DNA from: a virus
Taxonomy: Duplodnaviria > Caudoviricetes
Virus record (IMG/VR): IMGVR_UViG_3300034198_027116
Coordinates: 1,766 to 65,765 of that record
Direction: 5' to 3' (one strand)
Length of the DNA: 64,000 nucleotides
In this document: one piece after another, positions 1-29,896 of the stretch
How the letters are laid out: every line of letters starts with the position of its first letter
How positions within the stretch are numbered: the first letter of the stretch is position 1
The notes under the pieces: generated by a model
What the model was told of the DNA's origin: nothing
The model's input: the letters and a program-made list of their open reading frames with translations, nothing else
The model's database searches: none
Position numbers and translations under genes: made by a program

Positions 1-1
1 C

Positions 2-304
2 AGCGCCCTCGGCGTTACCTTCCGCGTCGATGTCCCTCGCCGCGATACCGAGCGCCGTTACCACGACGTCGGAACCCTCTATACGGATACCTACGAGGTT
101 CTTCTTCTCGCCGGGGATACCGAGTACGGGGATTCCTCGGGCGTCGTTCTCGTCGCTCGTAACCCCGAGGGGGGATTCCTCGACGACGAGAAGCTCGCGC
201 CGCTTTTCTGGTTCGGTTATACCGCCTACGGAACCCTCGCCGAGTACGACGAGAACGGTTACGTCAGGAACGGCTGGCGCGCCGGCTTCCTCGCCGGCGA
301 ATAA
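2..304 (+). CDS. 5'-truncated hypothetical protein (SALGVTFRVDVPRRD...GWRAGFLAGE*), not in the ORF track
   Basis: Open frame 2 from the window edge to TAA at 302-304, followed by a hairpin; more gene-like than the listed 30..479 ORF. Confidence 0.7.
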   Translation, partial: SALGVTFRVDVPRRDTERRYHDVGTLYTDTYEVLLLAGDTEYGDSSGVVLVARNPEGGFLDDEKLAPLFWFGYTAYGTLAEYDENGYVRNGWRAGFLAGE

Positions 305-310
305 GCGACG

Positions 311-340
311 AGCCGGCTATCCGATCGGAGATAGCCGGCT
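311..340 (+). terminator. GC hairpin after first gene
   Basis: AGCCGGCTATC (311-321) / GATAGCCGGCT (330-340); no U-tract. Confidence 0.5.
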
Positions 341-459
341 ATCGCGCAATCGAAAACGTCGCGCTTGCCGCGGCGCGATTACGGTTACGCGTCGAAGTAC
401 ATCCAAGTTCTACAACCAAATCGGGAAAGCGATTTCCCGGCAACCCGGAAGGAACAACC

Positions 460-837
460 ATGAGCGACAACCAAGATAACGCCAACCGCCTCGCTGGCAT
501 CTACCTCGCGAGTCTCCGTAGGAGGATTGCGAGTACGAAGAAAATCACGATCGAGTATGTCCGGGAGGATACACTCGAGATCCTGGATACGGCAACGATC
601 CCGGTGGATACCCGGATCACGCTGGCGCTAACGATCCTGCGCCGGCTCGACATCCCCTGTCCCGTCAAGGCCGAGATCCTCAGCGCCGACGAGGTTGGCC
701 ATGACGAGCACCCCGAATGGCTTGTCATGACCTACGCCAACCAGAACGGCTCCAGCTCCAAGATCCGCAGCGCCAGCAGCGCCGACGTCAAGCGCGGCCG
801 GCTGGTGCCCGAGATCCCACTCCGAAACCGAATGTAG
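460..837 (+). CDS. hypothetical protein
   Basis: ORF with GGAAGGA RBS. Confidence 0.75.
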   Translation: MSDNQDNANRLAGIYLASLRRRIASTKKITIEYVREDTLEILDTATIPVDTRITLALTILRRLDIPCPVKAEILSADEVGHDEHPEWLVMTYANQNGSSSKIRSASSADVKRGRLVPEIPLRNRM

Positions 838-851
838 AAAGGACTACAACG

Positions 852-1313
852 ATGAACGACAATCACGAGAACGACCTGCCGCAGTACTGCCATCGCATCG
901 ACGCCAACCCGCCGATGTACTGGCAGGCTTACCCAGGCGAGGGCTGGTATCTCCTCGTCGTCAACGAGGGGAACGCCTGGGACGACGCGCTGGAGGAAGC
1001 GATTGAGCCGGGCCACAGCGAGTACCCGTACTCGTCCGGCGCGTTGCCCTGGACGGCTTATACCGTCGCCCTCAACCCGCCCGGCAGGATGACGCATCGG
1101 CCATCGGCAAGCGACGTAGCCGCCATCCCGGAACTCGTCAAGTGCCTCTGCGCCAACGTCGCGTCGTTGCCGCCTGAGGTGGTTGGGACTCTGCTCAAGC
1201 ACGTCTACGACAACGCTCAGGAGTTGTGTAACGAAGCGATTGCCCTCGACGTCGAGTGGCACTACGCGACTGCTGCGGAGGCGTTTGCCTCTTCGGTGAC
1301 AACCAGCGTCTAG
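852..1313 (+). CDS. hypothetical protein (start moved to ATG 852)
   Basis: AAAGGA RBS before ATG 852; coding-like codon usage. Confidence 0.75.
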   Translation: MNDNHENDLPQYCHRIDANPPMYWQAYPGEGWYLLVVNEGNAWDDALEEAIEPGHSEYPYSSGALPWTAYTVALNPPGRMTHRPSASDVAAIPELVKCLCANVASLPPEVVGTLLKHVYDNAQELCNEAIALDVEWHYATAAEAFASSVTTSV

Positions 1314-1319
1314 CGCAAC

Positions 1320-1347
1320 GGGGCGAGCGGTTGCTGCCGCTCGCCCC
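1320..1347 (+). terminator. GC hairpin
   Basis: GGGGCGAGCGG / CCGCTCGCCCC immediately after the stop codon. Confidence 0.5.
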
Positions 1348-1392
1348 AAGCGTCGAAGCGGTTGCTGTTACGAAACTGTTACAGCAATCGCC

Positions 1393-1421
1393 TTGACTTT
1401 GGTTCGGCAATATGGTACAAT
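1393..1421 (+). promoter_or_regulatory. early promoter P1
   Basis: TTGACT-17 bp (ending CAATATGG)-TACAAT. Confidence 0.85.
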
Positions 1422-1472
1422 AGGTTGTAAGTGTTCGAGATGTCACCGACAACCGCAACCAAGGGAGGGATT

Positions 1473-1571
1473 GTGAGTGAGTTGATTGAGGAGTTCGTGT
1501 TCTGGACAATCGTCGTAGCGGGTGGCCTGTTCTCCGCTGCGACGTCCGCCTGGCTGCTGCTGGCAGCCTGA
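1473..1571 (+). CDS. 32-aa small membrane protein
   Basis: GGGAGGG RBS, GTG start, hydrophobic FVFWTIVVAGGLFSAATSAWLLLAA. Confidence 0.55.
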   Translation: MSELIEEFVFWTIVVAGGLFSAATSAWLLLAA

Positions 1572-1597
1572 CCCAACCAAGACTGGAAGGAACAATC

Positions 1598-1798
1598 ATG
1601 AGCAACACCATCGTCAAGCCGCGCATCTACACCACGATCAGCGCGAGCCACCGCAACGTCGAGACCGACTGGGCCGAGCGGCGTGTCGCGTTCTACCGCA
1701 AGCGCGCCGAGCGCAAGTGGGAGTACGGATTCCTCGTCGGGCTGGCCATGGCGACCGCAATCACCGTCGCCTGGTTCTACCCGATGGTCAACCCGTAG
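1598..1798 (+). CDS. small protein with C-terminal TM helix
   Basis: GGAAGGA RBS; YGFLVGLAMATAITVAWFY. Confidence 0.7.
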   Translation: MSNTIVKPRIYTTISASHRNVETDWAERRVAFYRKRAERKWEYGFLVGLAMATAITVAWFYPMVNP

Positions 1799-1872
1799 GA
1801 GGGCACTGCGCGGGGGCTTACTGCCCCCGCGCAACCCTTCGTAACGGTTAGGTAACGATGATGCACAGTACC

Positions 1873-1901
1873 TTTCATTTGGTTACACAGTATGGTAATC
1901 T
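1873..1901 (+). promoter_or_regulatory. early promoter P2
   Basis: TTTCAT-17 bp (ending CAGTATGG)-TAATCT. Confidence 0.75.
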
Positions 1902-1907
1902 TGAAGA

Positions 1908-2010
1908 GTGAGAAGTTTCCGTTATCGCTTTCGCAACCCGGCAGCGACAAGGGCAACTGATTGCCTCAGCTCGATTGACCCGTCGAGCGCCAATCTCTTA
2001 CAGGGTCAAC
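1908..2010 (+). ncRNA. candidate structured 5' leader with pseudoknot next to the RBS
   Basis: Hairpin GCTCGA/TCGAGC (1969-1988); its loop TTGACCC is complementary to GGGTCAA (2003-2009); additional small stems. Confidence 0.45.
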
Positions 2011-2026
2011 AGGAAGGATGGTTGTC

Positions 2027-2527
2027 ATGACCACCAGCAACGAGATCGTCCCCAGCAGCCTCACCGACATCGAGGGACTGGACACCAACGACCCGGCGGT
2101 TGCCGCGCTGCTCCAGCGCTACGCCGACCTGGAGGCCAAAGCGCAGCGCTCCCCGCGCCAGCGCAAGTCCTTCGGCGAGATGTGGAACAAGCGCATCGCC
2201 ACTCCCGTCGAGAAGATGCCGGCCGGCTACAAGATCATCGTCGAGTGGCTCATCGACGAGGGCCACATCGAGCAGGAGCAGGCCGGGCTGGTGTACGCCG
2301 CCTGCTGGTCGTACCAGTGCGCCGAGGGCAAGGAGGTCCGCCACGCCGGGGGCGCCAGCCGCGAGGCGCTGAAGGAGGCGCGGGAGGCGCTGGAGAAGGC
2401 CGCGCACTCGCGCATGACCAGCCAGCCCGAGGCCAACGCCGACGACGACACCGACGACGACGACATTGAGGACGAGGACATCGACCTCGACGACATCGAC
2501 GACGAGGACATCGACGACGAGGAGTAG
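2027..2527 (+). CDS. acidic-tailed early protein, paralog A
   Basis: AGGAAGG RBS; LDTNDPAVAALLQRYADLE N-terminal motif; D/E-rich C-terminal tail. Confidence 0.85.
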   Translation: MTTSNEIVPSSLTDIEGLDTNDPAVAALLQRYADLEAKAQRSPRQRKSFGEMWNKRIATPVEKMPAGYKIIVEWLIDEGHIEQEQAGLVYAACWSYQCAEGKEVRHAGGASREALKEAREALEKAAHSRMTSQPEANADDDTDDDDIEDEDIDLDDIDDEDIDDEE

Positions 2528-2534
2528 CGCAACC

Positions 2535-2561
2535 GGGGCGGCCGGCAACGCCGGCCGCCCC
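2535..2561 (+). terminator. GC hairpin abutting hammerhead 1
   Basis: GGGGCGGCCGGC-AAC-GCCGGCCGCCCC. Confidence 0.6.
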
Positions 2562-2619
2562 TGCGTCGCCCCGGGGTGGTGCCCGGCGGCCTGATGAGGC
2601 AGCCCTTGCCGAAACGCAG
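2561..2619 (+). ncRNA. type III hammerhead ribozyme (HHR1), predicted cleavage after C2567 (GUC)
   Basis: Stem III CUGCGU/ACGCAG; stem I GCC-CCGGG/CCCGG-c-GGC; core CUGAUGA (2591-2597); stem II GGCA/UGCC; GAAA (2611-2614). Confidence 0.9.
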
Positions 2620-2698
2620 CAACTACCAACCTCCTATGGCCTAGCCGATTGCCGTTTCTGACGGCAATCGGCTAGCGGCCAAGGAGAAGGGAGATGGA

Positions 2699-2929
2699 AT
2701 GGACCCGCAACTGCGAGCGTATTGGGAGATCGCCATTCTCAAGCGCACCTGCGCCGAGCACGCGCAACGCAGGATTCAGCTGGAGCAGAATCGCCTGACG
2801 ATCCGCTCCGCAACCGATCAGATCGGCTGCCGCATCTGGCACGTTCGCGCGCTCCAAGCGACGCGGCGTGCCATTCGTGATTGCGAGCGCGACATCAAGG
2901 AGTGCCTCGGATGCGCGTGCGGCGACTGA
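2699..2929 (+). CDS. hypothetical protein
   Basis: AAGGAGAAGGGAG RBS. Confidence 0.6.
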   Translation: MDPQLRAYWEIAILKRTCAEHAQRRIQLEQNRLTIRSATDQIGCRIWHVRALQATRRAIRDCERDIKECLGCACGD

Positions 2930-3111
2930 TCGAACTCGGACAACTCACGCGCGCAACGGAGCCGGCGCTGGTCGAGCTGTGGCAGCGTCAGCTGGAGTTG
3001 CCCTACCTCGGCGATGCCACGATCGGGATGCTGAAGCTCAGCAACGGCGCGTTGGCAACCAACGTCGAGGCAATCAACGCTCTGGTAAGAGGAGGTCGCA
3101 TCGATGCCTGA
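2911..3111 (+). CDS. hypothetical protein
   Basis: AAGGAG RBS before ATG 2911; fills the operon. Confidence 0.55.
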   Translation: MRVRRLIELGQLTRATEPALVELWQRQLELPYLGDATIGMLKLSNGALATNVEAINALVRGGRIDA

Positions 3112-3703
3112 CATCGAGCGCTGCAACTGCGGCGACGACTGGCGCCGCTGCGACTGCAGCTGCGCGCCAACCGAGAACCCGCAGTTCATCGGCGAGTACG
3201 CGGCCGGTCAGCTGGCCGAGGGCGACGTTGCCGCTCCGTGGATGTACCCGGAGACCGACATCCAGTGCTACCGCAGCGTGCCCTGGTTGTACGCGGACGG
3301 CAAGTTGGAGGACGTACTGCGGCACGACCTGCTGTACGTCCTCAACGACCACCGCGCAACCAGCCTCATCTGGCGTCGCAGGGAAACCTTCGACGGCGAT
3401 GTCTACTGGTTCGCAGCCATGCTGCCCGGCATCCACCACGTGACTGTCGAGCGCATCCCCTGCGTGGCCTACGTGTGGCACCGCATGGTTGACGTAGGCT
3501 TCAGCGGTGAGATCCGCAACCTGCACGAGACAAGCGGCCACGTGATGATGCTGGACGACAGCGAAGCCATCGCCAACGCGGCTGAGATCCAGGCGCAGCA
3601 CAACGCAAGAGCGCTGCCGTTGCTCAACGCAGCGACTGGCGAGGAGCGGCGTGCGCTGGACCGCGCAGCCTACCTCGCCGACATCCTCTCCGACACCAAC
3701 TAG
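3104..3703 (+). CDS. hypothetical protein with N-terminal Cys cluster
   Basis: GGAGG RBS; CNC...CDCSC. Confidence 0.8.
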   Translation: MPDIERCNCGDDWRRCDCSCAPTENPQFIGEYAAGQLAEGDVAAPWMYPETDIQCYRSVPWLYADGKLEDVLRHDLLYVLNDHRATSLIWRRRETFDGDVYWFAAMLPGIHHVTVERIPCVAYVWHRMVDVGFSGEIRNLHETSGHVMMLDDSEAIANAAEIQAQHNARALPLLNAATGEERRALDRAAYLADILSDTN

Positions 3704-3718
3704 AACAGGAGCAAGACT

Positions 3719-4009
3719 ATGCCCAAGAAGCCCCCGAAGCGCACTCGCGAGCGCGACACCCTCAACAAGGCAGCCAAGATGGAGCGCAACCGTTTCATCC
3801 GGGTGGTGCGCGGCGCACGCAAGGTCGGCAACCCCGATCCCGGCTACGGCGCGTGGCGCAACGAGTGGCTCGATGCCACCGAGCACAGCGGCAAGCGGGT
3901 CAACCGCGACGGCCGCATCCTGACCGACCACTCCCAGGTCGTCAGCCAGACGGAGCGGCTGCGCGCCGAGTTCCAGCGCTTCGCCGCACCGCACTTCGGC
4001 CTGCGCTAG
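3719..4009 (+). CDS. basic hypothetical protein
   Basis: AGGAG RBS. Confidence 0.75.
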   Translation: MPKKPPKRTRERDTLNKAAKMERNRFIRVVRGARKVGNPDPGYGAWRNEWLDATEHSGKRVNRDGRILTDHSQVVSQTERLRAEFQRFAAPHFGLR

Positions 4010-4030
4010 CTGCTCAAGCGCGACCCACCA

Positions 4031-4064
4031 GCCCCGGTAGACGGCAACGTCTACCGGGGCTTTC
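4031..4064 (+). terminator. intrinsic terminator-like hairpin
   Basis: GCCCCGGTAGACG-GCAA-CGTCTACCGGGGC followed by TTTCGTGCTTT. Confidence 0.7.
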
Positions 4065-4236
4065 GTGCTTTCTGGGTGCGCGCCGAGGGCTGCTGAGCCT
4101 GGTTGCCGCCCTCGCGCAATCGAAAACGCGCAGATTGCGGACAACGACGCATCCCGCTTTGCGAAAGTGAAAGCCGGTTGTCTTGGTGCGCGCAGTTGTT
4201 GCGTGCTTAGCCAGACGAAAGCAAGTCGTACAGGGA

Positions 4237-4265
4237 TTTCCTTTCTATCGACAGTATGGTATAAT
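4237..4265 (+). promoter_or_regulatory. early promoter P3
   Basis: TTTCCT-17 bp (ending CAGTATGG)-TATAAT. Confidence 0.85.
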
Positions 4266-4347
4266 CTAATCAGACAGAAGAAACGTCTCGCAGATGTACA
4301 ATCCCCGATGCATCCGCTATCACCAATCAGGGGAAGGGAGAACCATC

Positions 4348-4950
4348 ATGTCCAATGTCGACGAGATGCCGGATCTGGATACCAGCGATCCGGCGATCGC
4401 AGAACTGGTTGACCGGCTGGAAGACCTCGAACAGCAGGTGGAGGCCAAGGAGCAGGCCAAACTGGCAAAGGCGAACCGCAAGCGCCCGGGTCAGTCCGTG
4501 CCGCGCATGACGCTCGAGGAGCAGTTCGTCTACGACCTGGCCCTCACCGAGGTGGACGTGCCGGGTGGCCGTCGCCGCGATGCCATCGCGGACGGATACG
4601 CCAAGATCTACGACCTGCTCATGTCGCGCGTGGGCACCGAACTGGAGGAGTACGTCGAGGCCAACGGCTTCACGCTCCAGCTGCTCATGGCAACCATGAA
4701 GGTGTACTACTCCAAGGAGGGTCGCATCGTGCGCGGTGAGCAGCCGCGCGCCAAGGGTGACCAGACCCCGCAGCCGGCCGCTCCGATCGCCACTCCTGGT
4801 CCTACCACGGACGGCAACACGGAGGACGAGCAGCCGACTCAGGAGGCAGACGTTCTCGGCATCGACGCTGACGACATCGGCATCGACCTGAGCGACCTGG
4901 TCGGCGACGACGTGCTCGCCGGCTTCGTGTTCGGCGACGACGATGACTGA
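4348..4950 (+). CDS. acidic-tailed early protein, paralog B
   Basis: GGGAG RBS before ATG 4348; LDTSDPAIAELVDRLEDLE motif; acidic tail ending FGDDDD. Confidence 0.85.
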   Translation: MSNVDEMPDLDTSDPAIAELVDRLEDLEQQVEAKEQAKLAKANRKRPGQSVPRMTLEEQFVYDLALTEVDVPGGRRRDAIADGYAKIYDLLMSRVGTELEEYVEANGFTLQLLMATMKVYYSKEGRIVRGEQPRAKGDQTPQPAAPIATPGPTTDGNTEDEQPTQEADVLGIDADDIGIDLSDLVGDDVLAGFVFGDDDD

Positions 4951-4955
4951 TCGCT

Positions 4956-4986
4956 CGCAGCCGCCCGGCGTTGCCGGGCGGCTGTG
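4956..4986 (+). terminator. GC hairpin abutting hammerhead 2
   Basis: CGCAGCCGCCCGGC-GTT-GCCGGGCGGCTGTG. Confidence 0.6.
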
Positions 4987-5047
4987 GCTTCGCTGGAAAC
5001 TAATCCAGCCTGAACGAGCGCTGGGTAGTTACCAGCCGAAAAGCCAC
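4984..5047 (+). ncRNA. variant type III hammerhead ribozyme (HHR2), predicted cleavage after C4991 (UUC)
   Basis: Stem III GUGGCUU/AAGCCAC; stem I GCUGGA/UCCAGC; core CUGAACGA (one extra nt); stem II G(c)GCUGG/CCAGCC; GAA; loop I AACUA complementary to loop II UAGUU. Confidence 0.75.
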
Positions 5048-5156
5048 GCGTGGACGATCTGGTCGGTACGGGCACTGCCACCCCATTCCTTGGTGAACCC
5101 GTGCGCGTGTCATCGACTGCTATCCAGCGCTCGTTCATCAACCAACAGGAGGGGTT

Positions 5157-5237
5157 ATGCGAATCCAGATGCTGATGATCGGAATCGTGGTGCTAGCGTT
5201 GCTGATCGGCGCCGCAGCCAGCGGCGATAGCAAGTGA
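5157..5237 (+). CDS. 26-aa hydrophobic peptide
   Basis: AGGAGG RBS; MRIQMLMIGIVVLALLIGAAASGDSK; GTGA overlap with next gene. Confidence 0.55.
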   Translation: MRIQMLMIGIVVLALLIGAAASGDSK

Positions 5238-5488
5238 CGAGTGCGGAGATCGTTGCGGAGGAGGCGCCAACCGCTACGATAGAGCCAGTGGTAAAGGAAC
5301 TGGACTCGCGCATCGTCGATACCGACAAGGGTCGCTACAGCGTCAGGTTGCTGTGGCGCAGCACCGACAACACCCTAGTCGTCACGGCGTCAGTTATCGG
5401 TGGCGAGGAAGTCGCCACCCGCAAGGTACCCCGGCACATGGCCAGCGAGGCCATGCGACATCCGGTCGTGTACCTGAACCTCATCTGA
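5234..5488 (+). CDS. hypothetical protein
   Basis: ORF coupled to upstream peptide. Confidence 0.7.
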   Translation: MTSAEIVAEEAPTATIEPVVKELDSRIVDTDKGRYSVRLLWRSTDNTLVVTASVIGGEEVATRKVPRHMASEAMRHPVVYLNLI

Positions 5489-5509
5489 TTCGCTCAAAGG
5501 AGAGAAGCG

Positions 5510-5869
5510 ATGTCCGAGCAACTGCCCTATCGGGTAACCCTGCGCTTTGAGATCCCTGTCGACGTGACGGCAAGCACCGAGGCGTCTGCGGTTGACCGCG
5601 CAATGGCCGAGTGCTACAGGCAGCACCCCTCGCTGGAGTCTCGCGACTTCGAGCACGAGGTCGAGAGCAGCCTGTGCGCAGACTGCGGCAAGCAGTTTCC
5701 CTTCCAGCGCTTTGAGGCTGGCTACGAGAACTGTCTGGCCTGCAGCCAGGCCAACCCGATCGTTGACACGTACGTGCTCAGCGCCAGCGGGTTCAAGAAC
5801 AACGGCGCCGAGCTGGTGCGCGTCGAGCAGCACTTCAAGAACCAGCAGGACAATCACGTCCGCGGATAG
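5510..5869 (+). CDS. zinc-finger protein (CADC...CLAC, DksA/TraR-like spacing)
   Basis: AAGGAG RBS; C4 motif. Confidence 0.7.
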   Translation: MSEQLPYRVTLRFEIPVDVTASTEASAVDRAMAECYRQHPSLESRDFEHEVESSLCADCGKQFPFQRFEAGYENCLACSQANPIVDTYVLSASGFKNNGAELVRVEQHFKNQQDNHVRG

Positions 5870-5893
5870 CCAGATCGAAACTCCACACAATCA

Positions 5894-5922
5894 TTTAGTT
5901 TCTAGCCGCAATATGGTATACT
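5894..5922 (+). promoter_or_regulatory. early promoter P4
   Basis: TTTAGT-17 bp (ending CAATATGG)-TATACT. Confidence 0.8.
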
Positions 5923-5934
5923 ACCTCTAGGCAA

Positions 5935-5973
5935 GAAATCTAGGAAATCTAGGAAATCTAGGAAATGTAGGAA
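5935..5973 (+). repeat. 9-bp tandem repeat (TAGGAAATC, about 4 copies) in a 5' UTR
   Basis: gaaatc-taggaaatc-taggaaatc-taggaaatg-taggaa. Confidence 0.9.
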
Positions 5974-5984
5974 GGGGAACTGCG

Positions 5985-6410
5985 ATGTACGAAACGCATT
6001 GCGAACTACGGCTTCAGGAGTTGCGGCGCAGGCTCGCCGCGATGCTAGAGGATGACAGGCGCTGCGGCGTCGATGGCCTAGCCACGCATACCAGCCACGT
6101 GCTGGAGCGCGGCCATGCGCTGTTCAGCATCTTCAGCGACTACCACGCACTCTTCTCGGTCATCGAGGAGATGGTCGCTGGCATGGAGGCTAATGAGGCG
6201 CGCGACCTGTACTCGGTGCGCTTCGACTGTCAGACCGAGGGGCACTTCACCGGCTCCTACAGCCAGTGCGAGGACTGGATCGAGCAGGACCAGGATGCCG
6301 TCGCCTCTGACATCCGCTACGTCATCGACGACGCCACGCAGGACGAGGTTGCCGAGTGGCGCAAGCAGCGCACCGACCTGGCGATGGCTCGGCTGGAGGC
6401 GACATCGTGA
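5985..6410 (+). CDS. hypothetical protein
   Basis: First gene after P4; GGAAGGGG RBS. Confidence 0.75.
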   Translation: MYETHCELRLQELRRRLAAMLEDDRRCGVDGLATHTSHVLERGHALFSIFSDYHALFSVIEEMVAGMEANEARDLYSVRFDCQTEGHFTGSYSQCEDWIEQDQDAVASDIRYVIDDATQDEVAEWRKQRTDLAMARLEATS

Positions 6411-7186
6411 GCGCCGTCGACGCATTCGCAGAGGCGCAGCGCCGCCTGGAGCAGCTCGAGCTGCTGGTGGACGAGCGCAAGGTGCGGTCCAACGCCAAGC
6501 CGTGGGACGGTAGCCTGCTGGACCTCGTGCAGAAGTACGTCGAACTCACCATCGACAACGGTTCGCATCACGAGACCGTGCGCTTTCGCGCCTGGGGCAA
6601 CCTCAGCGACAAGCTGAACGAGCGCAAGACGTTTCTCAAGCCTGCCTTCTACTTCGTGGACCTTGGCAGCGGATGGAACGCGCTGAACATCGCTCGCGTC
6701 CAGGTGTACTACGCCAAGGACGATAACGGTGAGGAGATCATCGACCAGCGCACGTACCGCTTCAACCTCAACCAGGAACTGGTCAGGGACTCGCGCTTGC
6801 ACGGTCGGGTCAACGAGCGCATGCACAACGTGATCGCTCGCAAGCTGGGCGTTCACGTCGACAGCCCCATGGGTTTGGCGTCTAGCGACGAAGCCATGGC
6901 AGCCGTCCTGCGCTACACGCGCAGCGGTGCCTACGCGGCGCACCTCTGCTTCCTGGCGCTGACCGGCACTGACCTGGAGCAGGACGCGTACACCGACGTA
7001 CTGGGCGTGCACCGCCAGCCGTCGTCGAAGTACACCATCCAACCCGTGACGCGTTGCGTGCGTTGCGCTCGCAAGTTGACGGCGCCTGCGTCCATCGACG
7101 CAGCCTTCGGCCCAGACTGCCAGCGCATCGTGTTCGGCTCCACCGAGGCGTACAACACGCGAGTGCTGGGAGGGAAGCGACGATGA
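6407..7186 (+). CDS. protein with C-terminal DUF6011-like zinc finger
   Basis: GGAGG RBS, GTG 6407; CVRCARKLTAPASIDAAFGPDC. Confidence 0.75.
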   Translation: MSAVDAFAEAQRRLEQLELLVDERKVRSNAKPWDGSLLDLVQKYVELTIDNGSHHETVRFRAWGNLSDKLNERKTFLKPAFYFVDLGSGWNALNIARVQVYYAKDDNGEEIIDQRTYRFNLNQELVRDSRLHGRVNERMHNVIARKLGVHVDSPMGLASSDEAMAAVLRYTRSGAYAAHLCFLALTGTDLEQDAYTDVLGVHRQPSSKYTIQPVTRCVRCARKLTAPASIDAAFGPDCQRIVFGSTEAYNTRVLGGKRR

Positions 7187-7380
7187 GCAGAAAGTACGAC
7201 CACGGGCAACCCTTCGTCAGCAACACCGAGACATGGTCCGAGACTGCTCCATCCAACGGGATCGGCAAGGGGCCATGGCGATGGCGGTGCATGAGTTGCG
7301 AGCGCACCAGTTCGGTCAAGTACAGCACGTTCGTCAACGCCCGCAACGCAGCGGTCACGCATCAGAGGTCACACAAGTGA
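7183..7380 (+). CDS. small C2H2-like zinc-binding protein
   Basis: WRCMSC...HQRSH; ATGA coupling. Confidence 0.6.
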   Translation: MSRKYDHGQPFVSNTETWSETAPSNGIGKGPWRWRCMSCERTSSVKYSTFVNARNAAVTHQRSHK

Positions 7381-7532
7381 GCCAGGACATCACCCATCAT
7401 CCAGACTGTCCCAAGCACCGCGAATGGCCCATGTGCTGCGGGTCGCCTGCCCAGGTCGAGGAGCACTTCGACGAGCACTTCGACGACTACTACGCCGAGG
7501 ACTACAACCTCGCAGAAGCAGAGGAGAACTGA
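7377..7532 (+). CDS. small acidic protein
   Basis: GTGA coupling. Confidence 0.5.
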   Translation: MSQDITHHPDCPKHREWPMCCGSPAQVEEHFDEHFDDYYAEDYNLAEAEEN

Positions 7533-7533
7533 C

Positions 7534-7764
7534 ATGAGCGACAAGATCTTCGATGGTGTCGATTGTTCCACAGTCCTACGAGGAGGCATGATGCGTCACA
7601 ATGTTCAGTTCATTGGCGACTACTTCGTCCACCACACCACGATGACTGACACCGAGGGAATGGACGAGGAGCAGATCATCGCCAAGGCTAACGAGTTGCT
7701 GAAGCAATACTACGGCTGGGATGTTGCAGCCGCATCCAACGATATCGAAGTGGAGGAAGCATGA
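7534..7764 (+). CDS. hypothetical protein
   Basis: GAGGAG RBS. Confidence 0.65.
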   Translation: MSDKIFDGVDCSTVLRGGMMRHNVQFIGDYFVHHTTMTDTEGMDEEQIIAKANELLKQYYGWDVAAASNDIEVEEA

Positions 7765-7982
7765 GCGTACAGATCGAAACGAATGCGGTCAGTGAGAACT
7801 TTGTCATTGACTACAGCGAGGAGCAGGTGACGGTTCGCCTGCATCCTGATTGCACTGGCTGTTTCAGTGTTCACGTTGTCGATGACACCGCAGAGACGCT
7901 AGAGTTCACTCTCCAGCATGATGGTGAGTCCTGCCCGGTCCACTCGGTTTCCACCGGGTTGGCGCCGCGAGAGGGGGCGTGA
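7761..7982 (+). CDS. hypothetical protein
   Basis: GGAGG RBS; ATGA coupling. Confidence 0.65.
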   Translation: MSVQIETNAVSENFVIDYSEEQVTVRLHPDCTGCFSVHVVDDTAETLEFTLQHDGESCPVHSVSTGLAPREGA

Positions 7983-8206
7983 TGCGCGCCGTGTGCAAGG
8001 TCATCCTCAACGACGAGCAGTGGGCCGAGGTGCTGCAGTGCTTGTGGTGGCAGACCGTCAGCAGCCAATCCTCGCACCTCGCCGCGATTGCCCACTCCGT
8101 ACAGGAGCAGGTAGAGCGCCAGCAGGAGGCCTCGCTCATCGACCTCGACCCACGCGAGGTCGAGTTGCGTCGGTGGGATGGCGAGCGCGAGGTGCCGGCA
8201 CTGTGA
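7979..8206 (+). CDS. hypothetical protein
   Basis: Coupled ORF. Confidence 0.65.
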   Translation: MMRAVCKVILNDEQWAEVLQCLWWQTVSSQSSHLAAIAHSVQEQVERQQEASLIDLDPREVELRRWDGEREVPAL

Positions 8207-25812: not shown

Positions 25813-26881
25813 CAGCTTCGTCTTCTGCGTCGTCGTCCTCGGGTACGCCGTCGTCGCTGTCGTCGGTCATGGGCAGCACGCCGTCGCGGAGTAGGTCATC
25901 GACCATCTGCCCAAGCTCGTCCGGGTTCTCGGCGATCTTCTTGAGCGCCCCCTTGGCGAAGCGCACCCTGTTGTCTCCCCACACGTAGTACTGGCCCTCG
26001 ATCTTGATCAGGCCCATCTCCAACCCGAGGTTCAGGAGCTCGTTGGCCTCGTCGACCAACCCACGCTCCAGGTCAAACAGGAAGATCGCCTCCTGGAAGG
26101 GCTGCCCTACCTTCGACTTCTCGATCTTGGCCTGGATCATCTGAGCAACCTCTACCTTGCCGTTGACGACCTTGCCACCTCTCCAGCGCTTGCGCTCTTC
26201 CTTGATGGTCTCGATGCGGCTAAAGCGCACGCGATGAGTCGCGTAGAAACCGAGAGCCTTTCCGCCCGGCGCGCGCACCGGAGACCCAAACATCACTCCC
26301 ACCGCTTCGCGTAGCTGGTTGATGCAGATCAGAATCGAGTCGGTGTTGGCGCTCGTCAACTTGCGCATCGCCTTGCTCATGAGCGCGGCCTGGCGCGCCA
26401 TCGTCTCCTCGCCCATGCGCCGTTCGGCCTCGGCCTTTGGGACCAAGGCAGCGATGGAGTCCACGACGATGATGAAGTCCCCCTGCAGCAACAGCTGCTC
26501 GATCACGTCGAGCCCCTCGTCACCTCGCAGCGAGCGATCGATGAGCAGCAGGTTCTCTACGTCTACCCCCAGCTGCTCGGCGCGTTCCGGCTCGAAGCTA
26601 CCCTCTAGGTCGTAGAACGCGGCTCGCATGCCGGCGGCCTGAGCGTTTGCGATCGCCTTCAGGGAGAAGTAGGTCTTCAGGGTGGATAGCTCGCCGGAGA
26701 ACTCCACCGTGCGCCCCTTGACGAGGCCACCTCCGAGCGCGCGGTCTAGGGAGCGCGAGCCCGTTGAGACAAAGTCGAGCACGATCTCAGAGGCTCCCAC
26801 GAGAACGTCTCGCTTAGCTCCGCCCTCCTTCCGATAGAAGTCATTGATCTGCTTACGCAGGTCTTCGATGTCAGCTCTCAC
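25805..26881 (-). CDS. recA: RecA/UvsX recombinase
   Basis: STGS..LD.ALGGG, GELSTLKT, VVDSIAAL, INQLR, PGGKALGFYA. Confidence 0.95.
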   Translation of the reverse strand: MRADIEDLRKQINDFYRKEGGAKRDVLVGASEIVLDFVSTGSRSLDRALGGGLVKGRTVEFSGELSTLKTYFSLKAIANAQAAGMRAAFYDLEGSFEPERAEQLGVDVENLLLIDRSLRGDEGLDVIEQLLLQGDFIIVVDSIAALVPKAEAERRMGEETMARQAALMSKAMRKLTSANTDSILICINQLREAVGVMFGSPVRAPGGKALGFYATHRVRFSRIETIKEERKRWRGGKVVNGKVEVAQMIQAKIEKSKVGQPFQEAIFLFDLERGLVDEANELLNLGLEMGLIKIEGQYYVWGDNRVRFAKGALKKIAENPDELGQMVDDLLRDGVLPMTDDSDDGVPEDDDAEDEADE

Positions 26882-29555
26882 CGTGATTCTCCTTTGCTGT
26901 CTTCTTCTTCTGAGCGGTTAGCTCGGCCACCGCGTCTACCAGAGCCTGCTCGTCCTCGATTCCGAGGCTAGCTAGGGCGCGGGCGCGAGCCAGCTTCTTG
27001 AGCACGCCGACGTTGCACGCGGTCGGGCTCACGTTGTTACGCAGTTCTTCGAGAGAGTGGAAGGGGCGAGCGGCAGCGATCGCCTGGGCTGCCTTCTCGC
27101 CTACCCCGCCTACCGACGTGAGGCCGCGCCGAAGTGCCGTACCCTCGATCTGCCAGGTGACTCCCGACCGCATGATGCAGGCCGGCAGCACCTTGATGTT
27201 GTCCTTGCGAGCCAGGCGAACGTACAGCTGCTGATCGGTCTTGGCCGTCTGGGTCTCGAGCGTTGCGCAGTAGAACTCCAGCGGGTGGTTGGCCTTCAGA
27301 TAGGCCATGCGGTACCCGAAGCGTGCGTATGCGTACGAGTGCGAGCGGTTGAAGCCGTATCGGGTGTAGCCCTCCATCAGCTCCCAGAGCTGCTCTACTA
27401 GGTCGGGCTCCTTCTCGGCGATGCGCCGACGCACCTCAGCCATGAGCGTGGCGTCCTTCTTCTTGACCGCTCGCAGCATGGTCATCACGTCGTCGGCTGA
27501 AAATCCCAGGCCCTTCATCACCTGGATGACCTGCTCCTGGTACACCGCGATGCCGTAGGTCTCCTTGAGCACCGAAGCGAGCACGGGATGCCAGCTATCC
27601 GGCGGCACCCACTTGGCAGCTCGTCGATCTAGGTAGAGCTGCTCGAGGCCTAACTCTAGGCACGACGGGCGCCACATGGCGGCTACGAGTGAGCAGTCAT
27701 CGATGTTCTTCGGCTTGAGCAGCTTGCATCCCTTCTTGGCCGACCATCCCTGGAACGTAAAGACTCCATCGGTATCACCACGCCCGATCAACTTGATGGT
27801 CTCTCGGTCGCGCTCAGGAATCCAGTTCCAGTCTCGCTTCTCCATCAACTCTAGGCAGCGGCGAACGGTGCGCAGGCTGCGAACGCCCAGGATGTCCACC
27901 TTTACGAATCCCAGAGATTCGATCGCATCCATGCTGTACTGCGTTACCCAGCGATCAGACGACGAGATCATCATCATGGGAACCAGGTCAGCTACCGGGC
28001 GACGCGCCGTCTCGGCGATGACGCCCGCGGGGTGCCCACCGAAGGCTCGCTTGAGCCCTGTGATCTTAGAGAGCATCAGCCTACCTCGCTCACTATCGAG
28101 GGCGTCGTCGTCGGTCTCGAGCTCAAGCGCGGGGTTCTCCCGCTTGAGCTGTGCAGCTATCTCGTTGCGCGCGGATCGATCTGCGTAGGTCAGGTTGGTG
28201 CCGATCTGCGTAGTGGCAAAGCGGCGCGACACGTACTCGAGCACCTCGTCGCGCCGATGATCTTCCACGTCTAGATCGATGTCCGGCGGCTTAGAGCGAT
28301 CGTTCGACAGGAATCGCTCGAACAACAGCTTGTGCTCGATGGGATCCATCTGAGTGATGTTGAGCAGGTGGCACACCAGCGAACCACTCGCCGAACCGCG
28401 GGCGATTACGAAGATATCGTTGTCCTCGCAGAACTTGACGATGAGGCGTACCAGCAGGAAGTACTGGGCGAAGCCGGTATCGCGGATCACCCCCATCTCG
28501 GTCGCGTAGCGCTGACGGTAAGCCTCGCGCTTCGAGGCTGGAGCTGACTCCACAAGGGCCTTGAGCGGAGGCTGGGTGATGGCGAGCAGCGCTCTTAGCG
28601 CGTCGCCCTCGACGACCTCTGGAACCTCGTAGGAATAGGTATCCAACGGCGGGAAGGACATGCCGGAGCAGTCTGCGCGAAGGGCGTCTAGACCGCGAAG
28701 GGCTTCGGCGAATCGCGTCGCTCCGAGCTGCTGTTCAAGCAACTCTGGGCCACAGAGGTGAAAGCCGGTCGTGCCGTTGAACTGAGCCCCGCTGGCCTTC
28801 TTGTAAGCCAATCCCTTGAAGAAGTTATGCACCTCGAGATCATCTGGTTCTAGATAGTGCACGTCGTGCGCGGCGATTACCGGAATGGACAGGCGCTGAC
28901 CGAGGTCCCAGAGGTAGTCGACCACCTGGTCGTCTTCCTCGATGCCGTGATGCTGAAGTTCGATCGCGAACCGCTCGCCGTATAGGTCGCGGTAGTGGCG
29001 CGCTCGCCGCTCGGCGTGTTCCTCGCGTCCCTGGATGATGAGTTTGGGGATCTCGCCGTTGAGACACCCCGTCGTTAGCCATACGTGACCGCCCTGAGCC
29101 AGTTCTTCGATGTCGGAAAACTGAAAGAGAGGCTTGAAGTAGCCCTGCTGAAATGATCTACTAGCCGCTCGGCACAACATCTGGTAACCGGTAAAGTCTC
29201 TCGCCATCAGCAGGCAGTGACGACGCATCTTGGCCGCCTGCCCAGCGACCGTGGTCGCGTGCTTGCGCTGGCCGTTCTCCCTAGCCTCCTTGTTTATCGC
29301 GTCGGTCTTCTCCTTGGCGAGAGCGCGGTGCTCTTCGACGTCGGGAACCATGTAGGCCTCGATGCCAAGGATGGGTAGCACGTCGAAGCTTCTGCAGGCC
29401 TGATAGAACTCCACGCATCCCGCCATGGTGCCGTGATCGGTCAACGCCATGGCGGGCTGACCCATCTCCGCGGCTCGCTTCGCCGCCTCCTTGATCCTGA
29501 GGATCGCATCGTTGACGCTGTACTCAGAGTGAAGGTGTGAGTGAAAGAAGCTCAA
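26871..29555 (-). CDS. dnaE: DNA polymerase III alpha subunit (DnaE-type; PHP + polymerase + HhH)
   Basis: HLHSEYS, ALTDHG, RGSASGS, FERFL, PDIDLD, KVDILG, YQEQ, YGFNRSH; TTG start at 29555. Confidence 0.95.
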   Translation of the reverse strand: MSFFHSHLHSEYSVNDAILRIKEAAKRAAEMGQPAMALTDHGTMAGCVEFYQACRSFDVLPILGIEAYMVPDVEEHRALAKEKTDAINKEARENGQRKHATTVAGQAAKMRRHCLLMARDFTGYQMLCRAASRSFQQGYFKPLFQFSDIEELAQGGHVWLTTGCLNGEIPKLIIQGREEHAERRARHYRDLYGERFAIELQHHGIEEDDQVVDYLWDLGQRLSIPVIAAHDVHYLEPDDLEVHNFFKGLAYKKASGAQFNGTTGFHLCGPELLEQQLGATRFAEALRGLDALRADCSGMSFPPLDTYSYEVPEVVEGDALRALLAITQPPLKALVESAPASKREAYRQRYATEMGVIRDTGFAQYFLLVRLIVKFCEDNDIFVIARGSASGSLVCHLLNITQMDPIEHKLLFERFLSNDRSKPPDIDLDVEDHRRDEVLEYVSRRFATTQIGTNLTYADRSARNEIAAQLKRENPALELETDDDALDSERGRLMLSKITGLKRAFGGHPAGVIAETARRPVADLVPMMMISSSDRWVTQYSMDAIESLGFVKVDILGVRSLRTVRRCLELMEKRDWNWIPERDRETIKLIGRGDTDGVFTFQGWSAKKGCKLLKPKNIDDCSLVAAMWRPSCLELGLEQLYLDRRAAKWVPPDSWHPVLASVLKETYGIAVYQEQVIQVMKGLGFSADDVMTMLRAVKKKDATLMAEVRRRIAEKEPDLVEQLWELMEGYTRYGFNRSHSYAYARFGYRMAYLKANHPLEFYCATLETQTAKTDQQLYVRLARKDNIKVLPACIMRSGVTWQIEGTALRRGLTSVGGVGEKAAQAIAAARPFHSLEELRNNVSPTACNVGVLKKLARARALASLGIEDEQALVDAVAELTAQKKKTAKENHGES

Positions 29556-29896
29556 GACTGGATCGCCCGGAGCACGCACAGTCCCGTAAGCGCGCCGCCG
29601 AGAGCGAGAAAGCCTCCGCCTACTCCCCAGATGGCAGTCGCCCCCGCAGCAAGAGACATCGTCGCAGCCAGTCCATAGAAGTGGCTGTGCTCGGTCATGC
29701 GAGCCTGGCGATCTCGATGGTACTGGATGCTGTCGTCCAGCTGACGCTTGACGTCGTAAACACTTTCGGTGCATGCCGCGCAGGCGGTGACCATCCTGTT
29801 GTCACCGTTCCCGGTGGGGAGGAGCATGAAGGTCAAGCGCTCCTCCCCACCGCAGAACTGACAGGCGATCCCAGTGGGCTCGTCGTCTTCGTCCAT
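29552..29896 (-). CDS. zinc-finger membrane protein
   Basis: CQFC...CAAC; C-terminal hydrophobic helices. Confidence 0.6.
   Translation of the reverse strand: MDEDDEPTGIACQFCGGEERLTFMLLPTGNGDNRMVTACAACTESVYDVKRQLDDSIQYHRDRQARMTEHSHFYGLAATMSLAAGATAIWGVGGGFLALGGALTGLCVLRAIQS

What the first reader, a model, noticed from the sequence alone, without database searches (positions are those of the whole stretch)
2561..2619. Canonical type III hammerhead ribozyme HHR1
All conserved elements are present in order: CUGCGU-C (cleavage site), stem I (8 bp, one bulge, loop GUGGUG), CUGAUGA, stem II GGCA-GCCCU-UGCC with G10.1-C11.1, then GAA-ACGCAG. The GG in loop I and CCC in loop II could supply the tertiary contact. 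The first base of stem III is shared with the upstream GC hairpin.
Basis: seen in the sequence. Interest (0 to 1): 0.8.

Follow-up and report, generated by a model that had tools for sequence, protein, structure and literature searches.

The report
Hammerhead ribozyme between phage early genes
A complete self-cutting hammerhead RNA motif sits between two early genes of an uncultured high-GC phage, right behind a strong hairpin, and most likely cuts the long early message so that the upstream gene's RNA ends in a protective hairpin; this is a good new example of a known kind of element, not a new kind.

Summary
Window 2561-2619 (+) holds every defining element of a type III hammerhead, with cleavage predicted between C2567 and G2568.

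Chance is unlikely: 0 of 300 random 64-kb sequences gave an equally good motif, about 8e-4 expected per window.

Rfam does not call it at gathering score. The best match is the type II model at 30.2 bits against a cut-off of 37. But 0 of 18 clear phage type III loci reach that score either.

The window is part of a 65.8-kb IMG/VR virus record. The motif lies on the coding strand, 33 nt after the stop of an acidic-tailed ORFan, and abuts a 12-bp GC hairpin.

That arrangement recurs. In IMG/VR, 33 of 73 type III-like hammerheads have such a hairpin, against 5 of 271 type I-like ones and 298 of 9420 random positions.

A weaker second motif (4984-5047) follows a paralogous gene and hairpin.

No orthologous copy, covariation or RNA data could be obtained.

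Earlier notes of this scan describe hairpin-plus-type-III hammerheads on other DNA.

Verdict: a new member of a known kind, of moderate to low interest.

The parts
1872..1901 (+). Promoter-like element P2 ahead of gene A (extended -10 type, ACAGTATGGTAAT)
   Evidence: One of 5 copies of ACAGTATGGTANAAT (up to 3 mismatches), all on the + strand, at 1407, 1887, 4251, 5908 and 11620. Expected 0.93; 0 of 100 shuffles gave 5 or more. Repeat family D6. Function is inferred.
2018..2527 (+). Gene A: 169-aa ORFan with a long Asp/Glu tail; stop codon TAG at 2525-2527
   Evidence: ORF list. No Pfam or PHROG match. 3 homologues besides itself at 55-72% identity. Weak paralogy to ORF 4294-4950 (31% over 55 aa, E 2e-5). 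AF2 model pLDDT 60.8, not usable.
2528..2531 (+). CGCA directly after the stop codon; can pair with UGCG 2562-2565 and so compete with stem III
   Evidence: MFE of 2528-2619 extends the hairpin this way. The hammerhead-forced fold is 2.2 kcal/mol worse, P(hammerhead helices) 0.013. Nascent-RNA fold.
2535..2561 (+). 12-bp all-GC hairpin (loop AAC), 7 nt after the stop codon, with no T tract; its last base is the first base of stem III
   Evidence: A hairpin in the same place is kept in the distant relatives L002/L003, which lack the ribozyme.
2561..2566 (+). HHR1 stem III, 5' strand (CUGCGU; U2566 = U16.1)
2567..2568 (+). Predicted scissile bond between C17 (2567) and G1.1 (2568), triplet GUC
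   Evidence: Follows from the hammerhead numbering applied; not tested
2568..2590 (+). HHR1 stem I hairpin (8 bp, bulged C2587, loop GUGGUG 2576-2581)
   Evidence: Aligns to stem I and loop of Rfam RF02276.
2591..2597 (+). HHR1 core CUGAUGA (C3-A9)
2598..2610 (+). HHR1 stem II hairpin (GGCA / GCCCU / UGCC)
2611..2619 (+). HHR1 G12-A13-A14 and stem III 3' strand (ACGCAG; A2614 = A15.1)
2631..2686 (+). Long hairpin (15-bp inner stem) whose outer pairs join CUCCU 2631-2635 to AGGAG 2682-2686, just before the next start codon
   Evidence: z = -6.5 for 2528-2700 as a whole. Role (5' stabiliser or ribosome-site mask) is inferred.
2699..2929 (+). First downstream ORF (76 aa, ORFan), preceded by GGGAG 2689-2693
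4031..4073 (+). Terminator-like 13-bp hairpin followed by a T-rich run; likely end of the P2 transcription unit
   Evidence: Read. Not flagged by the consensus scan.
4956..4986 (+). Second GC hairpin (10-bp core 4960-4982, extendable to 4956-4986), 7-9 nt after the stop of paralog B (4294-4950)
4984..5047 (+). HHR2, a weaker hammerhead-like motif: 8-nt core CUGAACGA, stem II with a bulge, 7-bp stem III, 5-bp loop-loop complement AACUA/UAGUU
   Evidence: Second-best hit of model R1, but at noise level (12.3 bits, E 0.2). No Rfam hammerhead match at E<=10. A rod-like alternative fold is 8.7 kcal/mol better.

Best explanation
Window 2561-2619 (+) encodes a functional type III hammerhead self-cleaving ribozyme in the early region of an uncultured tailed phage of 63% G+C.

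Proposed course of events. Transcription from the promoter-like element at about 1872-1901 runs through gene A, the 12-bp GC hairpin and the ribozyme, and on into the next ORFs as far as the terminator-like hairpin at 4031-4073. Once stems I, II and III have formed, the RNA cuts itself between C2567 and G2568.

The upstream product is the gene A message. It then ends in the GC hairpin plus six nucleotides and a 2',3'-cyclic phosphate. This hairpin-capped 3' end should resist 3' exonucleases.

The downstream product starts with a 5'-hydroxyl inside the stem I hairpin and carries the following genes. The two halves of the operon can then decay and be translated independently.

Shown: the motif, its position, the hairpin, and the recurrence of the hairpin-plus-type-III arrangement in other phage contigs.
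Inferred: transcription through the site, cleavage, and the stabilising role of the hairpin.
For: 1. Every conserved position and closing pair of the hammerhead is present, with the GUC triplet. The MFE of the 59 nt is the hammerhead fold.

2. Chance. There is one descriptor hit in the window. 0 of 300 random windows reach the strict criteria and 2 of 300 the loose ones. 24 of 60000 random contexts pass around a skeleton that is expected 2.1 times per window.

3. Rfam's type II model aligns stem I, its loop, the core and the following GCAGCC at 30.2 bits, E 1e-5 for the record.

4. The 18-nt core-plus-stem-II pattern that HHR1 matches is found in at least 119 IMG/VR loci. There, 115 of 118 matches with full flanks sit in a complete type I or type III fold, against 21.3 after flank shuffling. 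On strict criteria the figures are 86 of 118 against 0.9.

5. Context. The site is intergenic and on the strand of all neighbouring ORFs and of five promoter-like repeats.

6. A GC hairpin of 6 bp or more that ends within 8 nt before stem III is found in 33 of 73 IMG/VR type III-like hammerheads. It is found in 5 of 271 type I-like ones and at 298 of 9420 random positions (Fisher p 1e-20). The 33 fall in 16 of 38 stem-I clusters and carry 23 different hairpin sequences. The gap is -1 or 0 in 27 of 33. HHR1 has exactly this arrangement (gap -1).

7. The upstream stop codon ends 4-10 nt before the hairpin in 21 of 32 IMG/VR cases. In HHR1 the distance is 7 nt.

8. Only type III leaves a 5' product without a built-in terminal hairpin, because types I and II end in stem III. 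This follows from the topology and fits the type-specific enrichment.

9. A second hammerhead-like motif follows a paralogous gene and hairpin at the same spacing.

10. Perreault et al. 2011 (PMC3088659; sections 6 and 8 and search passages read) showed that clustered hammerheads flanking genes in prophage transcripts cleave in vitro. For the Agrobacterium set they also cleaved in E. coli.
Against: No cleavage data and no RNA data exist for this site.

No orthologous hammerhead could be fetched, so there is no covariation for this copy. The only related loci obtained (L002/L003, gene A homologue 53% identical) keep the hairpin but have no hammerhead.

Rfam gathering scores are not reached. RF00008 gives nothing at E<=10 in the record.

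The fold energy of the 59 nt is ordinary for its composition (z -0.99).

In sequence context the nearest-neighbour model prefers other pairings. P(all hammerhead helices) is 0.013 for 2528-2619 and 0.008 for 2528-2700, because CGCA 2528-2531 can take the 5' strand of stem III.

The loop-loop contact is only 3 pairs, so activity at low Mg2+ is uncertain.

The high score of my own model R1 (33.2 bits) is largely circular, because its training set was fished with a pattern taken from HHR1.

The IMG/VR hammerheads were classified by my own descriptor, not by experiment, and many of them are related to each other.

A scan of about 250,000 windows would yield roughly 200 chance motifs of strict quality (my extrapolation). 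The motif alone is therefore not decisive.
Confidence: 0.72

Rival explanations
1. The ribozyme is real but gated. By default the upstream hairpin extends, with CGCA 2528-2531 pairing to UGCG 2562-2565, and withholds the 5' strand of stem III. A ribosome stopping at TAG 2525-2527, only 7 nt before the hairpin, melts this extension. Cutting would then follow translation of gene A. This refines the best explanation rather than replacing it.
For: The extended hairpin is the MFE once the upstream context is included, 2.2 kcal/mol better than the hammerhead fold.

In the nascent RNA, 6 of 6 stem III 5'-strand nucleotides of HHR1 and 5 of 7 of HHR2 are paired upstream.

Both cassettes have CGCA a few nucleotides after the stop codon.

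Stop-to-hairpin spacing is tight, 4-10 nt in 21 of 32 IMG/VR cases.

Against: Across IMG/VR, the fraction of stem III 5'-strand nucleotides paired upstream is no higher with a hairpin (0.55) than without one (0.48).

2 kcal/mol lies within the error of the energy model, which also ignores the tertiary stabilisation of the hammerhead.

Tight spacing may simply reflect compact phage genomes.
Confidence: 0.15
2. The motif is intact in sequence but biologically idle. Either the 12-bp GC hairpin terminates most transcripts, so that the ribozyme is rarely made, or the RNA misfolds. On this reading the motif is a recent insertion or a relic without a role.
For: The hairpin is conserved without any hammerhead in L002/L003, so it has a function of its own.

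Alternative folds are favoured in context.

No expression data exist.
Against: The hairpin has no T tract, while the unit's likely terminator at 4031-4073 does have one.

There is no promoter-like repeat between the hairpin and the next ORFs, so those ORFs need read-through.

All 13 core positions are intact.

The same abutting arrangement recurs in 16 stem-I clusters of unrelated contigs.
Confidence: 0.1
3. It is a chance match in a GC-rich, hairpin-rich intergenic spacer.
For: The fold energy is unremarkable.

It lies below the Rfam thresholds.

A very large scan will turn up chance motifs.
Against: 0 of 300 random windows reach this quality, and the expectation is about 8e-4 per window.

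In addition the site is on the right strand, behind a stop codon, and has the abutting hairpin that random positions show only 3.2% of the time.

In viral contigs the same core pattern is almost always part of a full hammerhead.
Confidence: 0.03
4. HHR1 and HHR2 act together to release the 2.4-kb RNA between them (2568-4991), with 5'-OH and cyclic-phosphate ends that a host ligase could close into a circle.
For: Both motifs have the same orientation.

Perreault et al. 2011 (section 6 read) raised spliced or circular products as a possibility.
Against: A terminator-like hairpin (4031-4073) and a promoter-like element (4236-4265) lie between them.

HHR2 has a variant core and a strongly favoured alternative fold.

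Perreault et al. report that they could not detect such products.
Confidence: 0.02

Closest known systems
Clustered hammerhead ribozymes that flank genes in prophages and phages (Perreault et al. 2011, PLoS Comput Biol, PMC3088659; sections 6 and 8 and search passages read)
   Same: Consensus core, intergenic position on the coding strand of a phage operon, more than one motif in a short gene block, and proposed processing of a polycistronic transcript. One tested set flanks ardA. That ardA encodes an acidic DNA-mimic protein is my recollection, not stated in the passages read. Here the upstream genes have long acidic tails.
   Different: Their bacterial and phage examples are largely type II. 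This one is type III.

The main text I read does not mention a hairpin abutting stem III: the terms terminator, coaxial, additional stem and flanking hairpin each occur 0 times. I could not see their supplements.

Nothing here has been tested for cleavage.
Rfam Hammerhead_3 (RF00008) and Hammerhead_II (RF02276)
   Same: Same core and three-helix junction. Stem I, its UGG-containing loop and the GCC after the stem II 5' strand align to the type II consensus. In that family these two elements form the loop I / 3'-tail pseudoknot (Perreault section 6).
   Different: Below both gathering scores: RF02276 30.2 against 37, RF00008 no hit.

The type II reading lacks G12 and A13. The real GAAA lies after a closed stem II, so the topology is type III.
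RNase III processing sites between early genes of phage T7 (recalled from textbook knowledge, no call)
   Same: Works like it. An intergenic cut in a long early transcript leaves the upstream message with a terminal hairpin that stabilises it.
   Different: T7 depends on a host enzyme that cuts within a hairpin. Here the RNA would cut itself next to the hairpin and leave cyclic-phosphate and 5'-OH ends.
RiboJ-type synthetic insulators: a type III hammerhead followed by a hairpin ahead of the ribosome site (recalled, no call)
   Same: Ribozyme, then a hairpin, then the Shine-Dalgarno sequence. Cleavage gives the downstream gene a defined 5' end that does not depend on what lies upstream.
   Different: This is a natural element. 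Its downstream hairpin pairs with one AGGAG instead of exposing it, and it has an extra hairpin on the 5' side.

Membership tests
Hammerhead ribozyme, type III | Core C3 U4 G5 A6 N7 G8 A9 | tested here: met
   CUGAUGA at 2591-2597
Hammerhead ribozyme, type III | G12 A13 A14 and the A15.1-U16.1 pair | tested here: met
   GAA 2611-2613; A2614 pairs with U2566
Hammerhead ribozyme, type III | Cleavage-site nucleotide 17 is not G | tested here: met
   C2567, triplet GUC
Hammerhead ribozyme, type III | Three helices with standard pairs next to the core (1.1-2.1, 10.1-11.1) | tested here: met
   G2568-C2590, G2598-C2610; stems of 8, 4-5 and 6 bp; the MFE equals this fold
Hammerhead ribozyme, type III | Topology: stems I and II closed by loops, stem III open | tested here: met
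   Order of the elements; descriptor hit
Hammerhead ribozyme, type III | Tertiary contact between stems I and II (loop-loop or pseudoknot), needed for fast cleavage at physiological Mg2+ | tested here: inconclusive
   Only 3 possible pairs, GGU 2578-2580 with GCC 2602-2604. They lie where the type II consensus has its pseudoknot partners.
Hammerhead ribozyme, type III | Rfam curated gathering score (RF00008, 48.5 bits) | tested here: not met
   No match at E<=10 in the record and none at gathering. However, 0 of 18 IMG/VR loci with clear type III motifs reach it either, so the threshold does not discriminate for phage copies.
Hammerhead ribozyme, type III | Compensatory changes in the stems among orthologues | not testable with these tools
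   No orthologous hammerhead found. Contigs of other runs gave no variant in 2561-2619.
Hammerhead ribozyme, type III | Site-specific self-cleavage giving 2',3'-cyclic phosphate and 5'-OH | not testable with these tools
   No RNA run holds the stretch
Phage 'stop codon - hairpin - type III hammerhead' arrangement (defined here) | GC-rich hairpin of 6 bp or more ending within 8 nt of stem III, and an upstream stop codon a few nucleotides before the hairpin | tested here: met
   12-bp hairpin, gap -1, stop codon 7 nt before it. Background: 33 of 73 type III, 5 of 271 type I, 298 of 9420 random positions.
Hammerhead ribozyme, type II (RF02276) | GAAA lies 5' of a closed stem III; stem II is open | tested here: not met
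   In the type II alignment the model's G and A of GAAA are deleted and the score is below the cut-off (30.2 against 37). A complete GAAA follows a closed stem II instead.

The most novel reading that the evidence does not exclude
The unit 'stop codon, 4-10 nt, GC hairpin, type III hammerhead' may be a widespread phage device for making message 3' ends without termination. The polymerase reads on and the RNA cuts itself a few nucleotides after the hairpin. The upstream message then gets a terminator-like protected end, and the downstream genes get their own 5'-OH end.

The hairpin would be needed only for type III, because types I and II leave stem III at the end of the 5' product. The close spacing to the stop codon leaves room for the terminating ribosome to influence cutting.

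I found no description of this in the papers listed, nor in the main text of Perreault et al. 2011. Earlier notes of this same scan describe the arrangement on other DNA.
Probability: 0.4. Interest if true: 0.55.

Novelty: new member of a known kind. Interest (0 to 1): 0.33.

Why it matters
Hammerheads in phages and prophages have been known since 2011, but their job is still not settled. This copy adds a clean, canonical type III example in a distant, uncultured phage lineage; its DnaE-like polymerase is at most 34% identical to any phage record.

More useful than the single copy is the context statistic it led to. Type III hammerheads in viral contigs, but not type I, are strongly associated with a hairpin that abuts stem III just after a stop codon. 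This gives a concrete hypothesis that can be tested at the bench: the ribozyme makes hairpin-capped 3' ends.

If gene A and its paralog are early anti-defence proteins, as their acidic tails and first-in-operon position hint, the ribozyme would set their expression apart from the rest of the operon. That hint is not tested here.

Tried and rejected
- Orthologues. Gene A alone and the alignment A2 found nothing in IMG/VR or in genome contigs. The metagenome scan gave L002/L003 only, and these have no hammerhead. The DnaE-like polymerase found no close relative in IMG/VR. blastn of window 1-8000 against the phage records gave no match.

- An exact 24-nt stretch of HHR1 had 0 hits in IMG/VR.

- The pattern TGGTG..CTGATGAGGCAGCC gave 10 viral and 63 genome loci (74 matches). 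By eye nearly all lie in coding contexts, such as conserved enzyme motifs. Only L128 looked hammerhead-like, and it is cut by the locus end. I did not classify these formally.

- Sequencing runs: no RNA holder is listed. The three DNA runs are one study, and one of them may be the source. The contigs laid gave no difference within 2561-2619, and cover there by the other two runs is thin.

- My covariance model R1 found no further hammerhead in the window or in the first 1900 nt of the record. Rfam found nothing in L196.

- The pair counts on alignment A4 are circular, because pairing was a selection criterion. I do not use them as evidence.

- Protein function of gene A. Pfam and PHROGs gave nothing. 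The ESM Atlas gave only unnamed clusters at 0.85 and structural TM below 0.4. The AF2 model has pLDDT 60.8, so no fold search was run.

- The consensus promoter/terminator scan gave counts at shuffle level.

- The paper on a pseudoknot hammerhead structure (PMC11300833, search passages only) concerns a form in which helix II is replaced. It does not bear on this copy.

- Supplements of Perreault et al. (alignments, figures S1-S8) were not available to me. They may show hairpins next to type III copies.
Full report
**What is there**

The window is bases 1766-65765 of a 65,765-base IMG/VR virus record. It has 63% G+C.

At 2561-2619 on the + strand the sequence reads as follows:
- CUGCGU, then C;
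- a hairpin GCCCCGGG-GUGGUG-CCCGG(C)GGC;
- CUGAUGA;
- a hairpin GGCA-GCCCU-UGCC;
- GAA, then ACGCAG.

In hammerhead numbering this gives a 6-bp stem III that includes A15.1-U16.1, and C17 in a GUC triplet. Stem I has 8 bp closed by G1.1-C2.1. The full C3-A9 core is present. Stem II is closed by G10.1-C11.1, followed by G12-A13-A14.

The order of the elements is that of type III: stem III is open, and stems I and II are capped by loops. The predicted cut lies between 2567 and 2568. The minimum-free-energy fold of the 59 nt is exactly this structure.

**More than chance?**

The bare skeleton CUGANGA-gap-GAAA occurs at chance level: 2 found, 2.12 expected.

The complete descriptor, with three stems, U16.1 and a non-G at position 17, hits once in the window on both strands. 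In 300 random 64-kb sequences with the window's dinucleotide make-up, 2 had a loose hit. None had stems as good as I>=6, II>=4, III>=5. A faster estimate gave 24 strict and 458 loose passes in 60,000 random contexts around a fixed skeleton. That is about 8e-4 strict chance motifs per window.

This is small for one window but not negligible for a scan of some 250,000 windows, so context matters. The fold energy itself is ordinary for this composition (z -0.99).

**Databases of RNA families**

Rfam at gathering score finds nothing in the window.

In E-value mode the best family is Hammerhead_II (RF02276): 30.2 bits against a cut-off of 37, at 2543-2608, with E 1e-5 for the record. That alignment matches stem I, its loop, the core and the GCAGCC that follows. 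It deletes the G and A of the model's GAAA. The true GAAA follows a closed stem II, so the type II reading fails and the type III reading holds.

RF00008 (type III) gives no match at E<=10.

To see what this silence is worth, I ran Rfam at gathering score on 18 of the 20 IMG/VR loci that hold clear type III motifs; two were dropped to stay under the size limit. None was called as any hammerhead family. Rfam's threshold therefore does not discriminate for phage type III copies.

**Context in the phage**

The motif is intergenic. It lies 33 nt after the stop codon of ORF 2018-2527 (gene A) and 80 nt before ORF 2699-2929.

Gene A is a 169-aa protein with a long Asp/Glu tail. It has no Pfam or PHROG match.

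All plausible ORFs nearby are on the + strand. Five copies of a promoter-like element (ACAGTATGGTANAAT, up to 3 mismatches) are also all on the + strand, at 1407, 1887, 4251, 5908 and 11620. Only 0.93 copies are expected, and 0 of 100 shuffles gave that many (repeat family D6).

One copy precedes gene A and the next precedes ORF 4294-4950. Between them, at 4031-4073, lies a 13-bp hairpin followed by a T-rich run. The simplest reading is one transcription unit: promoter, gene A, ribozyme, three or four small ORFs, terminator.

Between the gene A stop codon and the ribozyme is a perfect 12-bp G-C hairpin (2535-2561) with no T tract. After the ribozyme comes a long hairpin (2631-2686) whose outer pairs include one AGGAG, just ahead of the next start codon.

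**A second motif**

I confirm the layout:
- ORF 4294-4950 is a weak paralog of gene A (31% over 55 aa, E 2e-5).
- A GC hairpin follows it.
- Then comes GUGGCUU-C, a 6-bp stem I, an 8-nt core CUGAACGA, a stem II with a bulge, GAAA and AAGCCAC.
- Its loops are complementary over 5 pairs.

But this motif is weak:
- No Rfam hammerhead match at E<=10.
- It is the second-best hit of my model R1, but at noise level (12.3 bits, E 0.2; the third hit scores 12.2).
- A rod-like fold is 8.7 kcal/mol better than the hammerhead fold.

Perreault et al. report low activity for a natural insertion after A6 (section 8 read), which is the nearest precedent. I treat HHR2 as possible, and as modest support for HHR1.

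**Relatives**

Gene A has three homologues besides itself, at 55-72% identity.

Scans of IMG/VR, metagenome and genome contigs gave only two metagenome loci, L002 and L003, at 53% identity. There the gene is followed by a 13-bp GC hairpin very like the window's, but no hammerhead follows it.

So the hairpin is older or more widespread than the ribozyme at this locus, and I have no covariation evidence for HHR1 itself.

The phage has no close relative in the collections searched. Its DnaE-like polymerase is at most 34% identical to phage records, with Gordonia phages the nearest. No RNA run holds the region. The DNA contigs of two other runs of the same study showed no variant in the motif, and their cover there is thin.

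**The class in viral contigs**

Of 125 matches, my descriptor called 99 type I-like, 22 type III-like and 4 neither.

With 90-nt flanks, 115 of 118 fit a full hammerhead, against 21.3 after shuffling the flanks. On strict criteria the figures are 86 of 118 against 0.9. In viral DNA this pattern is thus almost always part of a real hammerhead.

A covariance model built from 20 of the type III copies scores HHR1 at 33.2 bits. Most of that score is by construction, because the training set was selected with HHR1's own pattern. I used the model only to look for further copies, and found none.

**The hairpin next to stem III**

Looking at the 45 nt upstream of the type III copies, I saw GC hairpins ending right at stem III. 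I then counted them with a fixed rule: 6 or more consecutive pairs, at least 4 of them G-C, a loop of 3-9 nt, and the end within 8 nt of stem III.

| Sample (stem II letters) | Type III-like | Type I-like | Random positions, same loci | Call |
|---|---|---|---|---|
| First (GGC/GCC) | 11 of 22 | 2 of 90 | 163 of 4680 | 75 |
| Second (GCC/GGC) | 9 of 26 | 1 of 93 | 84 of 2420 | 83 |
| Third (GTC/GAC) | 13 of 25 | 2 of 88 | 51 of 2320 | 83 |
| Together | 33 of 73 | 5 of 271 | 298 of 9420 | Fisher p 1e-20, |

The second and third samples were fished with other stem II letters and so are independent of the first.

The 73 copies fall into 38 clusters by their stem I hairpin, and 16 of these clusters have the upstream hairpin. 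The 33 hairpins fall into 23 sequence clusters. The gap to stem III is -1 or 0 in 27 of 33.

The upstream ORF's stop codon ends 4-10 nt before the hairpin in 21 of 32 IMG/VR cases, and lies inside the 5' arm in 6 more. Type III copies without a hairpin show no such clustering.

HHR1 and HHR2 both have a 12-bp hairpin with gap -1 and a stop codon 7 nt before it. Hairpins just downstream of the motif are not enriched: 0 of 22 type III and 3 of 90 type I.

These counts rest on my own descriptor. Related copies are only partly collapsed.

**How it most likely works**

The topology offers a simple reason for the type-specific hairpin. In types I and II the 5' cleavage product ends in the stem III hairpin. 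In type III it ends in a single strand of about six nucleotides. An added hairpin directly before stem III gives that product a terminator-like end.

I therefore propose that HHR1 cuts the early transcript after gene A. The gene A message would then end in the 12-bp hairpin with a cyclic phosphate. The downstream genes would start with a 5'-OH within stem I. The two parts would have separate fates.

This matches the general proposal of Perreault et al. for phage hammerheads (section 6 read) and adds a role for the hairpin.

Alternatives that I cannot exclude are that the hairpin stacks on the short stem III and helps it form, or that it competes with it. With upstream context included, the energy model prefers an extension of the hairpin (CGCA 2528-2531 with UGCG 2562-2565) by 2.2 kcal/mol. 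The probability of the full hammerhead pairing then drops from 0.68 to 0.013.

Because the stop codon is only 7 nt from the hairpin, a terminating ribosome could remove that competition. This is the gated variant, raised earlier in this scan on other DNA. My one general test of it did not separate hairpin-bearing from hairpin-less copies: the upstream pairing of the stem III strand in the nascent RNA was 0.55 against 0.48.

**Comparison and novelty**

The closest known things are the clustered hammerheads of prophages and phages (Perreault et al. 2011) and the Rfam type II and type III families.

HHR1 meets every sequence-defined feature of a type III hammerhead. It fails only Rfam's score thresholds, which other phage copies fail too. 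It is a new member of a known kind.

The abutting hairpin and its spacing to the stop codon are not mentioned in the main text of Perreault et al.. Nor did they surface in four literature searches. I saw only listings and abstracts of the other papers, and no supplements.

Notes of this same scan describe hairpin-plus-type-III hammerheads on other DNA. Within the scan the arrangement is therefore not new either.

**Verdict**

I put the probability that the transcript self-cleaves in vitro at about 0.85-0.9. For the whole explanation, including its role, my confidence is 0.72. Interest is moderate to low (0.33).

Noticed in passing
window 4984-5047 and 5119-5137: The second hammerhead-like motif (HHR2) can instead form a rod. 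Alone, that fold is 8.7 kcal/mol better than the hammerhead fold. In context, its core and stem II pair with a downstream arm at about 5119-5137 in a long helix (MFE of 4951-5160, z -6.0).
   Followed up: partly
window 1407, 1887, 4251, 5908, 11620 (+): Five copies of a promoter-like element with an extended -10 (ATATGGTA.AAT type), all on the + strand. They divide the early region into short transcription units.
   Followed up: partly
window 5935-5970: Four tandem copies of a 9-nt unit (GAAATCTAG) directly after the promoter-like element at 5893-5922. This could be an operator or a binding array.
   Followed up: no
L003 1137-1170 (and L002, same sequence): The distant homologue of gene A is followed by a 13-bp GC hairpin almost identical to the window's (one extra pair). 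No hammerhead follows it; several other hairpins do.
   Followed up: partly
window 2428-2527: The acidic tail of gene A is built from a 15-nt (5-codon) periodic repeat, about 6 copies at 62-80% identity. This suggests growth by slippage or duplication.
   Followed up: no
IMG/VR loci L068, L255, L264, L041: Several viral contigs carry three or four hammerhead pattern matches within 1-2 kb, for example three type III-like copies within 2 kb in L255 and three type I-like copies in L068. This resembles the clustered arrangement described in 2011.
   Followed up: no
18 IMG/VR loci: Rfam at gathering score called none of the clear type III hammerheads in 18 viral loci. Phage type III copies seem to be systematically missed by the curated model.
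   Followed up: partly
window 26871-29774 (-): The phage encodes a DnaE-like polymerase III alpha (PHP, NTPase, finger and HhH domains) that is at most 34% identical to any phage record. Gordonia phages are the nearest, so this is a distant lineage, possibly of actinobacterial phages.
   Followed up: partly
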